A stretch of DNA of 64,000 nt from the human T2T-CHM13v2.0 reference genome, Homo sapiens (GCF_009914755.1 NC_060943.1), one strand, 5' to 3'. Numbered from the stretch's first letter, positions 13,967 to 17,924 are shown. The notes: generated from the sequence alone by a model not told the origin. Program-made: numbers and translations.

Positions 13967-14900
13967 GGGAATTTGGGGGCATGCAGAGACAGGAACAGAG
14001 TGGGAGCAGGGGTGGGGGGAGAGATTCAGAGAATGGGAGAGAGGAGAGGGCGAGAGAGACAGAGGAAGGGGGTCACAGAGGAGAGGTAGAAGGAGAAATG
14101 GGGAGGGGCAAATCCTCTTTCCCGCCCGAGCCTCAGTTTCCTCATCTGCTCCCTCAGGTGGTGAGGAGTCCAGGGACCACCCGCCAAGTGTCTGCAGGGC
14201 AGGAAGGCCTGCGGAGGGGAGAGGGAGGTGGAGGAAGGAGGCTCAGGCTTGAATCCAGTGTGGTGACTGGCAGCAGAAGCGTCCCCTCCATGGGCACGGG
14301 CTGCCTCTCAGGCTCAGATTCTAGAGTGTTCCTTCCTAGAGTCCCTCCAGGCCTCCTTCAGCCTCCCCCACCCACCCTGACCTGGGAGGGAGTAGCCATT
14401 GTCGTCCACATATTTTTCCAAGGGAGAAATCAGGCTGCAGCCCACATCCTCCTTCCTCCTCCTCTTTCCTGCAGCCCCGCACGGTGTAGCTGGCCACCCC
14501 TTCTAGGGCTGTGGCGGCTGAGACTCCTGGGGGAAACCTAAACCCCTTCCATCTGGAAGGTTTGGAGCTTCCACCGCTGAGAAGGAAAAAAAAGGGAGTC
14601 GGTGGAGTGGAAGGGGCAGAGGGAAAGGAAGGGGCTAAAGAGAGTCGCCTGGTACACAGTTGGCGCTCAGTTGGTGCCCTTCCCCTTTCCTAGGGGAGAG
14701 CACAGAGAGTAGGAAGGCAGAGAGAGGAAGAGAAAGGGGGAATCGAGGGTGAGAAGGGGAGGCTGTATCTATAAAAAGCCTGGCACACAGTCGGTGCTCA
14801 ATAACTGCCCATTCCCTTCAGGACCACATGAAAAGGGAGAAGAAGAAACTCCCGCAGAGCAAAAGCAGAAGGAGAGGCAGCCTAAAGAGAGGGACATAGA

Positions 14901-15199
14901 GCCAGGCACGGTGGCTCACGCCTGTAATCCCAGCACTTTGGGAGGCCTAGGCAGGTGGATTGCCTGAGCTCAGGAGTTCGAGACCAGCTTGGGCAACACG
15001 GTGAAACCCTGTCTCTACTAAAATACAAAAAATTAGCCGAGCATGTTGGTGGGTGCCTGTAATCCCAGCTACTCAGGAGGCTGAGACAGGAGAATCGCTT
15101 GAACCCGGGAGGCAGAGGTTGCAGTGAGCTCAGATTGCCCCACTGCACTCCAGCCTGGGCGACAGAGCAAGACTCCATCTCAAAAAAAAAAAAAAAAAA
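14901..15199 (+). mobile_element. Alu SINE inserted between array units 2 and 3
   Basis: Full Alu with A tail. Confidence 0.92.
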
Positions 15200-16571
15200 G
15201 AGAGAGAGGCACGGGTGGAAAGTGTGAAGCAGACCAGTAGGTGTTTGTTAAGTGTTATTTCTTTTCCCCAAGAGACAGGAGAAAGTAAAGGAGGAGTGAG
15301 GAGAGGAGGAAGAGAAGGAAGAGAAGGAGGAAGAGGAGGAGGAAGGAGAAGAGGAGGAAGAGAGGAGGAGGAGGAGGAGGAGGAGGAGGAAACTCCAGCA
15401 GAGAGAATAGAAGAGACTGTTGTGTGGGAAGGAGACAATATATGTAAAGTGACTAATACACAGTGGGTGCCTAATAAATGCCCATTCTCCTCCCTGGCAG
15501 CAAGCACAGAGAAAGCAGCCAGGAGGAAGGGAGCAAGCAGAGAGAAGGAGAAAAGGAGAGAAGGGAGAACAGAGCCTGTGAGGCAAGCAGACAGTGTAGA
15601 TGAAGCGGCAGCATACAGTAGGCACTCAATACATGCCTATTTCCTCCCTCAGGAAAGAGCTGGCAGGGCAGAGAGGAGGGGGAGAAGCTGGTGGAGAGAA
15701 GGAGGCAGGGAGAAGAGAGGAAATGAGAACAAGTACACTGGTGAGGTGGTGGGCACACAGGAGGCACTCAATAAATGCACATTGTCGTCCTTGGAGGAGC
15801 AAGAGAACAAGACAGAAATGAAGGCACAGACAGGAATGAGAGGAAAAGGTTGGCCCAGGAGGCCTCCGTGGGGGTGGAGGAGCAGAGGGAGGAGGGATCA
15901 GTGAGAGGAGTGTGGCAGAGGAGAGGATACGCAGGGAGGGGGCATTGCAGGTAAACCATGGGGCACACAGGAGGCACTCAATAAACACCTGTACCCTTCC
16001 CCAGAAAAGGACCCAGAGAACAGCAAGGGGATAAGCTGGCAGAGCAAGAGGGGCAGCGAGAAAGAGGTAGGAGATGAGGAGGGATGTTAATTGCCTGGCA
16101 TACAGTAGGTGCCCCATAATTGCTTGTCTTTGTCCCCGAGAAAGAGCCGATGGGACAGAAAGAAGTTAGAGATAAGGGAAGAAGGCGAAGTGAAGGGTTA
16201 GGGGAGAATAAGAAAACTGTCTGGCACACAATAGGTACTCAATAAATGCCCATTTTCTTCCCTGGCACAGAGCAGAAAGAAGCAGAGACTGGTGGAGTCA
16301 GTGGAGACTGAAGGGCAAGAGGAGAGGAGAGAAAGGACATAATTGCTTGCATACCAGAAGTGCTCAATAAATGTAGTCCTTGCCTTGGAAGAGGGCAGAG
16401 AGCTCAGAAACACAAGGAAAGGACAGAAGAGGGACCGGGGAGGAAGAGAGTGAGGAGAGAGGTATGTAAGGTGTTTAGTACACAGTAAGTGCTCAAAATG
16501 TGTCCACTCCCTCTGCCAGGAGAGAGCAGAAAGTCAGAAAGGAGAGGACACCAATAGAGAGGAAAGAAAGG

Positions 16572-17170
16572 GGCCAGGCGCCGTGGCTCATGTCTGTAAT
16601 CCTAGCACTTTGAGAGGCAGAGGTGGGAGGATCGCTTGAGCCCAAGAGTTCGAGACCAGCCTGGCCAATGTAGAGAGACCCTGTCTCTACAAAAAATACA
16701 AAAATTAGGCTGGGTGCGGTGGCTCATTCCTGTAATTCCAGCACTTTGGGAGCCAAGGTGGGTGGATCACCTGAGGTCAGGAGTTGAAGACCAGCCTGAC
16801 CAACATGGTGAAACCCCGTCTCTACTAAAAATACTTAAAAATTATCCAGGCGTGGTGGCGGGTGCCTGTAATCCCAGCTACTCGGGAGGCTGAGGCAGGA
16901 GAATCGCTTGAACCCAGGAGGTGGAGGTTGCAATGAGCTGAGATCACGCCATTGCACTCCAGCCTGGGCGGCAAGAGCAAAACTCCATCTCAAATAATAA
17001 TAATAATACAAAAATTAGCCAGGAATGGTGGTGTGTGGAGTTCCAGCTACTTGGGAGGCTGGGGTGGGAGGACTGCTTGAGCCCAGGAAGTCGAGGCTGC
17101 AGTGAGCTGCGATTGTGTGCGCTCCAACCTGAGCGACGGAGTGAGACCCTGTCCTAGAAAGAAAAAAAGA
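16572..17170 (+). mobile_element. Nested Alus: an AluS-like element (~16708-17005) inserted into the middle A-rich linker of an older AluJ-like element
   Basis: Left arm, full Alu, then the AATACAAAAATTAGCC duplicate and a right arm with J-type GAGCCCAGGA/GAGGCTGCAGTGAGC. Confidence 0.85.
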
Positions 17171-17924
17171 AAGAAAGGAATGGGGGTGGGGGGAGGAAAG
17201 AAGGTAGCGAGAGAGGAGCCATGTTCCTCAACTCCTCGGCGCATAGCAGATGCTCAGTAGATGCCCGTTTCCTTCCCAGGAGAGACCAAGCAAATCAGAA
17301 AGAGAAAGGAACTGGGGCAGAAGGGACAGGAAAGCAAGAAGGATGGAAAGTGCAGACGCGGTTAGGGGAATTGCCTGCCAAGCATCAGGTGCTTAATAAT
17401 TGCCCGTTTCTTCCATGGAAGGAGCCAGAGGCACAGGAGGAACAAGTAGAGGGCGCCGAGGACGGCACACCCGAGGCGGGCACACCCGAGGACGGCACAC
17501 CCGTGGCGGGAGACGGAGTGTGTGAGGAGAGGCGAGGAGGCATTTTGGGTGCATACAGCAGGTACTCCATAAATGCCTGTCCCCTTCCCCAGGCAGAGCA
17601 GAGAAAGCAGGCTGGGAGTAGGTGGAGACCCCAGGAAGGGAGGCCAGGGGAGAAGGAGAGTCTGAGGGTGGAGGCCGTGGGCCAGGCCCGCAGGAGGTGC
17701 ACCTTCCCCAACCCAGCAGCCGCTGTGGCCGACCCTCCTCCGTGGCCCAGCCCACAGGCCTCCCCAGCTGGCTGGCTCCTCCGGAGCCCTGACAAGGGCC
17801 CATTGTCCTGGGCCTGGCACCGCCTGGCCTGGCCTGGCCTGGAGGGGGAGGGGAGGCTGTCCAGCCCTGACCGGCTCTTGTCCCCTGTGTCTGTTTGTGT
17901 GTATTGGAGTGGGGGCGCTGTCTG

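What the first reader, a model, noticed from the sequence alone, without database searches (positions are those of the whole stretch)
14647..17592. Hidden 14-unit repeat-spacer array of MIR/L2 tail motifs inside the lncRNA intron
Seen: a ~55-bp motif (consensus TGTAAAGTGCCTGGCACACAGTAGGTGCTCAATAAATGCCCATTTCCTTCCCCAGG) recurs 14 times in one orientation. Anchor spacings are about 131, 447 (includes an Alu), 226, 155, 142, 210, 136, 125, 125, 129, 761 (includes nested Alus), 139 and 173 bp. The spacers are GA-rich and not alignable by eye, while the motif persists. Only the tail is present, with no MIR body, which argues for tandem amplification of one fragment rather than 14 insertions. Interruption by AluS- and AluJ-like elements makes the array older than those insertions. 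The consensus is self-complementary (CCTGG...CCAGG, GGCA...TGCC). Established: the motif is the 3' tail shared by MIR and L2, and L2-clade tails fold as stem-loops. Inference: in the minus-strand RNA this gives ~14 structured beads separated by CU-rich PTBP1/MATR3-type linkers, like the XIST A repeat, i.e. an exapted SINE-tail multivalent RNA domain. Motif retention despite spacer turnover hints at selection. I do not know of a description of this array.
Basis: partly seen in the sequence, partly recalled or inferred. Interest (0 to 1): 0.85.

Follow-up and report, generated by a model that had tools for sequence, protein, structure and literature searches.

The report
Old L2/MIR-tail tandem array in HSCHARME intron
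A short piece of an ancient mobile element was copied head-to-tail about 14 times long ago and now sits, much decayed, inside the retained intron of the heart and muscle RNA gene HSCHARME; the repeat is real, but nothing suggests that the repeated piece folds or has been preserved by selection.

Summary
By leave-one-out profile, 12 are firm, u10 is marginal and u3 is doubtful. They share sequence beyond the transposon tail, have a modal unit of 125-142 bp, and are interrupted by AluSx1 and AluJb/AluSq2. This is an old tandem duplication, not 14 insertions.

RefSeq shows the region as intergenic. The HSCHARME paper (PMC12374974) and its RepeatMasker table place it in retained intron 1 of pCHARME (alias MYREM), antisense, at about transcript nt 3680-6640. 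That is just 3' of the 2.9-kb UC-rich repeat where PTBP1 binding was mapped. The table lists 6 of the 14 units as separate L2c/L2d/MIRb scraps.

Not supported:
- Structured beads: mean fold z is +0.6 on the minus strand and +0.2 on the plus strand, RNAalifold finds no consensus pairs, and the proposed stems show no covariation.
- Selection on the motif: about 23-28% divergence from the array consensus, with independent CpG decay.

The spacers are 71-89% pyrimidine in the RNA. They carry PTBP1/MATR3-type words only at the level composition predicts.

Verdict: a new, decayed member of the known class of TE-derived tandem repeats. Cross-species conservation could not be tested.

The parts
14630..17593 (+). 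Whole array: 14 head-to-tail units (TE sense on +; transcribed on the minus strand as part of pCHARME intron 1, about transcript nt 3680-6640)
   Evidence: mapping to PMC12374974 Suppl. Data 4 (window ~ 21269 minus transcript position, calibrated on the Alus and checked on the (TCC)n row 5879-5978 = TRF 15289-15390)
14630..14697 (+). unit 1 tail motif (keeps the ancestral CpG)
   Evidence: E 2.4e-11; leave-one-out E 4.2e-7
14761..14822 (+). unit 2 tail motif (published RepeatMasker row L2d 6460-6490)
14901..15199 (+). AluSx1 inserted in the spacer of unit 2
   Evidence: (SRP-like hits)
15207..15275 (+). unit 3 tail motif, heavily decayed; doubtful on its own
   Evidence: E 6.1e-9 (circular); leave-one-out E 0.7
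15436..15500 (+). unit 4 tail motif (published row MIRb 5785-5855, 70 nt)
15598..15656 (+). unit 5 tail motif
15733..15798 (+). unit 6 tail motif (published row L2d 5485-5524)
15941..16008 (+). unit 7 tail motif (published row L2d 5277-5309)
16077..16143 (+). unit 8 tail motif (published row L2c 5142-5177)
16202..16269 (+). unit 9 tail motif, best preserved (published rows L2c 5015-5051 and 5022-5059)
   Evidence: E 7.7e-15; 0.07 from consensus
16339..16390 (+). unit 10 tail motif, marginal
   Evidence: E 1.3e-6; leave-one-out E 0.016
16457..16524 (+). unit 11 tail motif
16573..17157 (+). AluJb with AluSq2 (16709-17008) nested in its middle A-rich linker, inserted in the spacer of unit 11
   Evidence: target-site duplications
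17218..17283 (+). unit 12 tail motif
17358..17423 (+). unit 13 tail motif; its spacer holds a 15-nt x 3.2 repeat at 17456-17503
17534..17593 (+). unit 14 tail motif
18307..21090 (-). Context, not part of the array: the 2.9-kb UC-rich simple repeat at the 5' end of pCHARME intron 1 (includes the 23-nt minisatellite at 18351-19173), to which the paper maps the PTBP1 signature
21138..21139 (-). Context: likely exon 1 / intron 1 junction of HSCHARME (CAG|GTGAGA on the minus strand)
   Evidence: position inferred from the paper's statement that the simple repeat starts at transcript nt 75

Best explanation
This is an old, decayed tandem array derived from a transposable element. One 5'-truncated L2/MIR 3' end (the last ~50-70 bp), about 20 bp of its downstream flank and an adjoining purine-rich stretch were duplicated head-to-tail into at least 14 units of ~125-140 bp. 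The likely mechanism is unequal exchange or replication slippage in a locus that is a patchwork of purine-rich tandem repeats. This happened before the AluJb and AluS insertions and before a CpG in the tail had decayed (shown). Since then the tail copies have drifted apart about as far as ancient neutral repeats do, and the low-complexity spacers have kept changing length (inferred from one genome). The array lies in retained intron 1 of the heart and muscle lncRNA HSCHARME/pCHARME (alias MYREM) and is transcribed antisense to the transposon (shown by mapping to the published table). To that RNA it contributes 14 pyrimidine-rich tracts (71-89% C+U, about 75-175 nt each). These are separated by 14 mixed-composition islands of about 50 nt that carry no PTBP1/MATR3-type words and no shared fold. 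Any function of the array most likely lies in the bulk CU-richness it shares with the rest of the intron, not in the tail motif (inferred).
For: Origin: 14 of 14 copies are on one strand, at 4.7 per kb against 8 weak hits in 261 kb of background. The modal unit is 125-142 bp. Identity extends ~20 nt past the tail's AATAAATG (0.53 and 0.47 against expected 0.27 and 0.35), into a continuation carried by only 7 of 14,503 genomic copies of the core 11-mer. The published RepeatMasker table labels 6 units L2c, L2d or MIRb, all antisense to pCHARME. Age: the Alus have target-site duplications. The CpG column reads CG in 1 unit, TG in 8, CA in 3 and TA in 2, so the units separated before the CpG decayed. 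Decay: mean difference from the array consensus is 0.28 over all 14 units (ungapped; u3 and u10 are out of register) and 0.23 for the other 12. Adjacent units are no more alike than distant ones (0.564 vs 0.563, permutation p 0.47). No structure. Rfam finds only Alu-related matches (17 rows). Context: the HSCHARME locus, retained intron 1, UC-rich repeat at nt 75-2955 and PTBP1 CLIP at the intron's 5' region (passages of PMC12374974; supplement sheet). Linker words sit at composition level. Class precedent: 23% of human mini/satellites derive from TEs, and old ones are under-detected (PMC3389668, passages).
Against: Neutrality of the tail rests on one genome and on recalled typical divergences of L2/MIR copies (about 25-33%). 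I could not date the duplication or compare orthologues. The neutral baseline I tried to build from flanking chr19 was cut to 200 kb and gave too few tails. The array sits in an intron whose deletion in mouse causes heart defects (PMC7773549), so it cannot be dismissed as lying in inert DNA. (A/U)UCUU words are 4-fold denser in the spacers than in the window's minus strand (8.4 vs 2.1 per kb) and 6-fold denser than in the 5' simple repeat. L2b/MIRb/MIRc fragments are reported to promote nuclear enrichment of lncRNAs in a dose-dependent way (PMC6360812). hg38 and T2T agree on unit positions across the array (mapping), so it is not visibly unstable.
Confidence: 0.7

Rival explanations
1. The CU-rich linkers are a working part of the pCHARME intron-1 protein platform (PTBP1, MATR3, PCBP2 or similar). 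The array matters because tandem duplication multiplied pyrimidine tracts, and the tail is a passenger that merely spaces them.
For: The array lies in retained intron 1, next to the mapped PTBP1 region. Spacers are 71-89% pyrimidine with runs of up to 95 nt. UCUU is at 21.7/kb against 5.8/kb on the window's minus strand, (A/U)UCUU at 8.4 against 2.1/kb, and CCUCC-type words at 80/kb. Mouse intron 1 binds MATR3 and PTBP1 through CU-rich words, and its deletion gives heart defects (PMC7773549).
Against: Word counts equal what composition alone gives (UCUU 31 vs 34.2 +/- 5.1). UCUCU/CUCUC words are 6-fold rarer than in the 5' simple repeat (48 vs 292/kb). The rest of the intron is similarly pyrimidine-rich (0.74), so the array is not special. 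The paper's PTBP1 affinity is said to follow the 5' repeat. No CLIP data for this segment were seen.
Confidence: 0.2
2. One reading: an exapted multivalent RNA domain of ~14 structured tail beads joined by CU-rich linkers, kept by selection and analogous to the XIST A repeat.
For: The bead-and-linker layout is real. The consensus does contain CCTGG...CCAGG and GGCA...TGCC. The host RNA is a functional nuclear lncRNA with a retained intron.
Against: Only 1 of 14 minus-strand folds beats shuffles (u1, z -2.26; mean +0.62). A three-unit stretch has z +0.59. RNAalifold gives 0 pairs. Neither proposed stem exceeds shuffled controls or shows covariation. Copies are only 56-66% alike. The stem-loop known for L2-clade tails (recalled) concerns the sense RNA, and here the transcript is antisense.
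Confidence: 0.04
3. The antisense L2/MIR tails act as repeat-insertion domains (RIDLs) that add, copy by copy, to the nuclear or chromatin retention of pCHARME.
For: PMC6360812 (abstract and passages) reports dose-dependent nuclear enrichment with L2b, MIRb and MIRc fragments and transgene validation. pCHARME is the nuclear isoform and is defined by keeping this intron. One unit is labelled MIRb.
Against: The other five labelled units are L2c or L2d, not L2b. The fragments are 30-70 nt of the extreme tail only. Which part of the elements carries the reported activity was not seen in the passages read. No conservation evidence is available here, and the tails are strongly decayed.
Confidence: 0.05
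4. Fourteen independent insertions of 5'-truncated L2/MIR elements into a hotspot.
For: LINE copies are often 5'-truncated, so tails without bodies are common (established knowledge).
Against: All 14 are on one strand (chance about 1 in 8000 for either strand). The period is regular. The post-tail sequence is shared and is not the family continuation. Chance pairs of the core 11-mer at 70-160 nt are about one per 31-nt spacing class genome-wide, as observed.
Confidence: 0.01

Closest known systems
TE-derived tandem repeats / minisatellites of the human genome (Ahmed and Liang 2012, PMC3389668; abstract and passages read)
   Same: A fragment of a transposable element is repeated head-to-tail at a single locus and expanded by local duplication. 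The paper itself notes that old, diverged arrays escape detection.
   Different: That catalogue rests on Tandem Repeats Finder entries, and this array is too decayed for TRF. The paper's text never mentions MIR (0 occurrences), and its locus list (an .xls supplement) was not seen. Here the unit is part TE tail and part non-TE flank plus a low-complexity stretch.
Other tail-derived arrays in the same genome: chr20:58,963,585-58,963,865 (45-bp period, 7 profile hits) and chr2:65,658,142-65,658,319 (3 hits about 80-86 bp apart), T2T coordinates
   Same: The same L2/MIR tail core is repeated in tandem on one strand.
   Different: They are shorter, have fewer copies, are far better preserved (exact 11-mers) and have no long purine-rich spacer. 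No host transcript was examined.
UC-rich simple repeat of pCHARME intron 1 (PTBP1 decoy; PMC12374974) and the MATR3/PTBP1 platform of mouse pCharme intron 1 (PMC7773549)
   Same: Same intron, same strand bias, pyrimidine-rich tracts with PTBP1/MATR3-type words.
   Different: The array has 6-fold fewer UCUCU-type words, is interrupted every ~130 nt by a tail island devoid of them, and has no binding data of its own.
RIDLs: L2b, MIRb, MIRc fragments that promote nuclear enrichment of lncRNAs (Carlevaro-Fita et al. 2019, PMC6360812)
   Same: Ancient L2/MIR fragments inside a nuclear lncRNA, with a copy-number (dose) effect proposed.
   Different: The labels here are mostly L2c/L2d. Only the extreme 3' tail is present, in a retained intron rather than an annotated exon. 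Conservation is untested.
XIST A repeat (recalled from general knowledge, not looked up here)
   Same: Layout: a repeated core separated by pyrimidine-rich linkers within a nuclear lncRNA.
   Different: A-repeat cores are short, GC-rich, highly similar to each other and form defined helices. Here the cores are 56-66% alike and show no fold or covariation.

Membership tests
TE-derived tandem repeat | Two or more head-to-tail copies of one unit on one strand | tested here: met
   14 anchors on + with a modal period of 125-142 bp after Alu removal. 12 of 14 are recovered by leave-one-out profiles.
TE-derived tandem repeat | The unit overlaps an annotated transposable element | tested here: met
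   The published RepeatMasker rows (L2c x3, L2d x3, MIRb x1) map onto 6 of the 14 units. No Dfam/Repbase comparison was run here.
TE-derived tandem repeat | Copies share non-TE flank, showing duplication after insertion | tested here: met
   Identity is 0.47-0.53 for ~20 nt beyond the tail. That continuation follows only 7 of 14,503 genomic core 11-mers.
TE-derived tandem repeat | Detected as a tandem repeat by TRF (the operational criterion of the 2012 catalogue) | tested here: not met
   No ~130-bp period among 33 TRF rows at minimum score 30. The array is too diverged, which is why it is hidden.
XIST-A-like structured multivalent RNA domain | The repeated core forms a recurring, conserved helix | tested here: not met
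   Mean z is +0.62 on the minus strand and +0.21 on the plus strand. RNAalifold gives 0 pairs. The stems are at 54.3% vs 52.5% and 80.0% vs 81.2% in shuffles.
XIST-A-like structured multivalent RNA domain | Pyrimidine-rich linkers between cores | tested here: met
   Spacers are 0.71-0.89 pyrimidine on the minus strand.
XIST-A-like structured multivalent RNA domain | Cores are kept similar by selection or homogenisation | tested here: not met
   Mean pairwise identity is 0.56 (core bins 0.61-0.66). Divergence from consensus is 0.23-0.28, with independent CpG decay.
pCHARME intron-1 PTBP1/MATR3 platform | Lies within the retained intron 1 of the transcript | tested here: met
   Unit-by-unit mapping of the paper's transcript coordinates to the window. 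A 5' splice site lies at 21139|21138. Figures of the gene model were not visible.
pCHARME intron-1 PTBP1/MATR3 platform | Enrichment of UC-rich 7-mer / UCUCU-type or (A/U)UCUU words beyond composition | tested here: inconclusive
   Densities are 2-4x the window background but equal to the composition expectation (UCUU 31 vs 34.2 +/- 5.1). UCUCU-type words are at 48/kb against 292/kb in the 5' repeat.
pCHARME intron-1 PTBP1/MATR3 platform | Direct protein cross-linking to this segment | not testable with these tools
   The paper's CLIP-qPCR amplicons are at the 5' and 3' ends of intron 1 (legend). None is reported for the array.
RIDL (nuclear-enrichment L2b/MIRb/MIRc) | TE type is L2b, MIRb or MIRc | tested here: inconclusive
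   1 of 6 labelled units is MIRb and 5 are L2c or L2d. The labels of such short shared tails are ambiguous.
RIDL (nuclear-enrichment L2b/MIRb/MIRc) | Evidence of selection (conservation, enrichment or strand bias) on the fragment | not testable with these tools

The most novel reading that the evidence does not exclude
The array is a second, so far unrecognised module of the functional retained intron of pCHARME. It would be an ancient tandem amplification that multiplied a 'pyrimidine tract plus antisense L2/MIR tail' unit 14-fold. It would be kept across mammals because the tracts load PTBP1, MATR3 or PCBP-type proteins at regular ~130-nt intervals, while the tails act as spacers or RIDL-like retention elements. 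If so, it would be a rare case where one TE fragment built a periodic protein-binding scaffold in a lncRNA with a knockout phenotype. One hint needs checking: two of the four mouse PTBP1 sites modelled in PMC7773549 lie 140 nt apart (5,399 and 5,539).
Probability: 0.1. Interest if true: 0.7.

Novelty: new member of a known kind. Interest (0 to 1): 0.33.

Why it matters
HSCHARME/pCHARME is a lncRNA with genetic evidence of function. Its activity is tied to the retention of intron 1: the mouse intron deletion gives heart defects, and the human transcript is proposed as a PTBP1 decoy. About 3 kb of that intron, roughly a quarter, turns out to be one ancient 14-unit tandem array. Published annotation shows it only as scattered L2/MIR scraps and simple repeats. 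This gives a natural, well-bounded segment for dissecting the intron by deletion or tiling CLIP. It also explains part of the intron's pyrimidine bias by duplication history rather than by selection. As a piece of genome biology it is otherwise ordinary: an old TE-derived tandem repeat.

Tried and rejected

2. Neutral baseline from flanking DNA. I asked for 1 Mb of neighbouring chr19 to compare the decay of ordinary L2/MIR tails with the array's. I did not ask again. The 261 kb in hand gave 8 weak hits, too few for a baseline, so the neutrality argument leans on recalled family divergences.

3. The semi-global pairwise 'identity in aligned columns' is uninformative, because shuffles score as high (0.77-0.80). 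Only the normalised scores were used.

4. The ungapped register misplaces u3 and u10 (0.74 and 0.45 from consensus). I give figures with and without them.

5. Rfam at E <= 1 gave 17 rows, all Alu-related (SRP-like and the Alu-derived mir-1268, mir-3135 and mir-1285 families), and none in a tail unit.

6. A DNA search of the genome with two whole units found no paralogous array, only two isolated tails on chr8 and chr7.

7. I considered a protein-coding or tandem-exon reading. On the + strand each unit ends in a pyrimidine tract plus CAG|G and is followed by purine-rich sequence. I rejected it because unit lengths vary out of frame (125-226 bp) and the would-be introns would be only ~55 nt. No ORF scan was run.

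8. I considered that the + strand AATAAA words could terminate EMC10 read-through. This was not pursued and there is no evidence for it.

9. The HNRNPL link of MYREM (PMC11632610) gives no obvious match. CA-rich words would be on the + strand, not in the RNA.

10. The MIR core fragment at 14128-14150 is ~490 bp from unit 1. That is too far to be the body of the founder element, and it is not part of the array.

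
Full report
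**What is in the sequence**

- The repeat finder groups 12 of them as one 35-nt family and 8 as a 45-nt family. Two more were seen by eye.
- A profile built from the 14 finds them all (E 2.6e-16 to 1.3e-6) and finds only three weak hits in the remaining 61 kb of the window.
- That test is circular, so I repeated it leaving each unit out. Of the 14 units, 12 are recovered at E <= 3.1e-5. Unit 10 is marginal (E 0.016) and unit 3 is not significant (E 0.7).
- In 261 kb of background (200 kb of nearby chr19 plus the masked window) the profile finds 8 weak hits, best 22.5 bits.
- After excising the Alus at 14901-15199 and 16573-17157, the units measure 131, 148, 226, 155, 142, 210, 135, 126, 125, 129, 176, 139 and 173 bp.
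- Tandem Repeats Finder reports no such period, so 'hidden' is a fair word.

**Tandem duplication, not repeated insertion**

- All copies are on one strand and are regularly spaced.
- Similarity continues about 20 nt beyond the AATAAATG end of the transposon tail. Pairwise identity there is 0.53 and 0.47, where composition predicts 0.27 and 0.35.
- That continuation is not the family's own. The 11-nt tail core occurs 14,503 times in this genome (reversed-pattern control 1,526), and only 7 of those are followed exactly by the array's next six bases.
- Right after the CCAGG most units also share an RGAGC-type stretch (alignment).
- Further out, the spacers are about 80% G+A and align only marginally better than dinucleotide shuffles (0.227 vs 0.214 +/- 0.004, against 0.268 vs 0.083 for the motif).
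- In such a two-letter composition, homology of 60-65% cannot be seen. The contrast 'motif persists, spacer does not' therefore needs no selection to explain it.

**Age and decay**

- The AluJb has a GAAAGAAAGG-type target-site duplication. The AluSq2 nested in it has CAAAAATTAG. The subfamily names come from the published table. The array therefore predates them.
- One dinucleotide of the tail reads CG in unit 1, TG in eight units, CA in three (units 5-7) and TA in two. This is the signature of a CpG that decayed independently on either strand after the units had separated.
- The 42-nt core differs from the array consensus by 0.28 on average. Units 3 and 10 are out of register in that ungapped count. 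The other twelve range from 0.07 to 0.31, with a mean of 0.23.
- Adjacent units are no more alike than distant ones (0.564 vs 0.563, permutation p 0.47).
- These values lie near what I recall for genome-wide L2 and MIR copies (about 25-33% from consensus). That leaves little room for purifying selection on the tail. The comparison rests on recall and on one genome.

**Where it lies**

- The RefSeq table shows the stretch as intergenic, with MYREM modelled only at 6293-8377.
- PMC12374974 (passages, section 6 and Supplementary Data 4 read) defines HSCHARME (aliases lncFAM, MYREM) as a 13.9-kb minus-strand locus. Its main isoform, pCHARME, retains intron 1.
- The paper's RepeatMasker table of pCHARME can be laid on the window by the relation window = about 21269 minus transcript position. 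I calibrated this on the AluSx1 and the AluJb/AluSq2 pair and checked it on the (TCC)n row 5879-5978, which falls on the TRF row 15289-15390.
- Under that mapping the rows land on units as follows:

| Published row (transcript nt) | Unit |
|---|---|
| L2d 6460-6490 | 2 |
| MIRb 5785-5855 | 4 |
| L2d 5485-5524 | 6 |
| L2d 5277-5309 | 7 |
| L2c 5142-5177 | 8 |
| L2c 5015-5051 and 5022-5059 | 9 |

- All seven rows are antisense to the transcript. So 6 of the 14 units are already listed in print, as unrelated scraps. The main text, searched for 'repeat' (6 places), speaks only of the simple repeat and of the RepeatMasker method, not of an array.
- The array occupies about nt 3680-6640 of pCHARME. 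That is just 3' of the '(TCTCTC)n 75-2955' block, which the authors identify as the source of the UC-rich signature and of PTBP1 binding.
- A CAG|GTGAGA donor at 21139|21138 on the minus strand fits their exon 1.
- The RefSeq MYREM start at 8377 has no AG before it. That model therefore looks like a 5'-truncated piece of the same transcript.

**Does the tail fold?**

- Minus strand, 66-nt windows around each tail: z-scores run from -2.26 (unit 1 only) to +2.31, with a mean of +0.62.
- Plus strand: mean +0.21.
- A 318-nt stretch spanning three units has z +0.59.
- RNAalifold on the 14 aligned minus-strand copies predicts no consensus pair.
  - CCTGG/CCAGG pairs in 54.3% of cells against 52.5 +/- 3.2 in shuffles (168 of 500 shuffles as high).
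  - GGCA/TGCC pairs in 80.0% against 81.2 +/- 2.0 (427 of 500), with a covariation score of 0.176 against 0.185.
  - The pairing that exists is inherited sequence, not maintained structure.
- Rfam finds only Alu-related matches.

**What the linkers offer**

- On the RNA strand the 14 spacers (1,427 nt) are 71-89% pyrimidine, with pure runs of 9 to 95 nt.
- Word densities per kb on the RNA strand:

| Word | Spacers | Whole window (minus strand) | 5' simple repeat |
|---|---|---|---|
| UCUU | 21.7 | 5.8 | 7.9 |
| (A/U)UCUU | 8.4 | 2.1 | 1.4 |
| UCUCU/CUCUC | 48 | 22 | 292 |
| CCUCC-type | 80 | 19.8 | 11.5 |

- The UCUU count (31) equals what mononucleotide shuffles of the spacers give (34.2 +/- 5.1).
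- The strict MATR3 consensus used in PMC7773549 occurs twice in the array span.
- The tail islands hold none of these words.
- The rest of the intron is also pyrimidine-rich (0.74).

**How common is it?**

- Pairs of the exact 11-mer core on one strand at spacings of 70-160 nt occur at 7 loci in the genome. That is about what 14,503 copies give by chance per 31-nt spacing class (roughly one each).
- Three loci have three or more profile hits on one strand:
  - this array (14);
  - a 45-bp minisatellite at chr20:58,963,585-58,963,865 (7);
  - a 3-copy cluster at chr2:65,658,142.
- Tail-derived tandem repeats therefore exist elsewhere but are rare in this narrow scan, and this is the largest found.
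- The scan sees only well-preserved cores, and the tool warns that its counts are lower bounds.
- The general class is established. At least 23% of human mini/satellites derive from TEs, and old ones are under-detected (PMC3389668).

**Verdict**

The origin story (one fragment amplified in tandem, older than the Alus) and the lncRNA-intron setting are supported. The bead structure and selection on the motif are not. The best reading is an old, neutrally decaying TE-derived tandem array that became part of a functionally important retained intron.

Two things remain open: whether its pyrimidine tracts add to the intron's protein platform, and whether its tails act like the L2/MIR nuclear-enrichment domains of PMC6360812. 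Both can be settled by orthologue comparison, tiled CLIP and a clean deletion.

Noticed in passing
window 6293-8377 versus about 6293-21200, minus strand: The RefSeq MYREM model (2.1 kb) covers only the 3' part of the published 13.9-kb HSCHARME locus. Its start at 8377 is not preceded by an AG, so it looks like a 5'-truncated piece of the intron-retaining transcript. A CAG|GTGAGA donor at 21139|21138 fits the published exon 1.
   Followed up: partly
window 12105-13535 and 18307-21090: The T2T span from the MYREM 3' end to the inferred TSS is about 14.9 kb, against 13,905 bp given for hg38. The published hg38-based table lists (CTC)n of 317 nt and an AluSc8 of 100 nt, where T2T has a ~1.4-kb masked purine-rich block and a full-length Alu (13662-13967). 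This suggests length differences between assemblies in the simple repeats of intron 1, while the tail array itself maps identically.
   Followed up: partly
window 18351-19173: A 23-nt minisatellite (about 36 copies, 75% matches) makes up part of the published '(TCTCTC)n' block. On the RNA strand it is UC-rich, so the PTBP1 platform is itself partly a higher-order tandem repeat rather than a plain dinucleotide run.
   Followed up: no
window 14128-14150 (+): A MIR core-like fragment (published row MIR1_Amn 7023-7066) lies about 490 bp before unit 1 in the same orientation. That is too far to be the body of the founder element.
   Followed up: partly
window 17456-17503: A 15-nt unit repeated 3.2 times (87% matches) inside the spacer of unit 13. 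It is GC-rich and unlike the other spacers, and accounts for that unit's extra length.
   Followed up: no
L005 (G000:C20:58962085-58965230), about 1478-1786; L009 (G000:C2:65656642-65659819), about 1483-1686: Two other tandem amplifications of the same L2/MIR tail core in the human genome: a 45-bp-period array with 7 profile hits on chr20, and three copies about 80-86 bp apart on chr2.
   Followed up: partly
window 14630-17593, + strand: On the + strand (not the lncRNA strand) most units end in a pyrimidine tract plus CAG|G followed by purine-rich sequence, and several carry AATAAA. This makes a row of splice-acceptor-like and poly(A)-signal-like sites 4.3 kb downstream of the EMC10 3' end. 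No evidence of use.
   Followed up: no
mouse pCharme intron 1 (PMC7773549): Two of the four PTBP1 sites modelled in the mouse intron are 140 nt apart (5,399-5,419 and 5,539-5,559), close to the human array's period. This may be coincidence, but it is worth checking for a mouse counterpart of the array.
   Followed up: no
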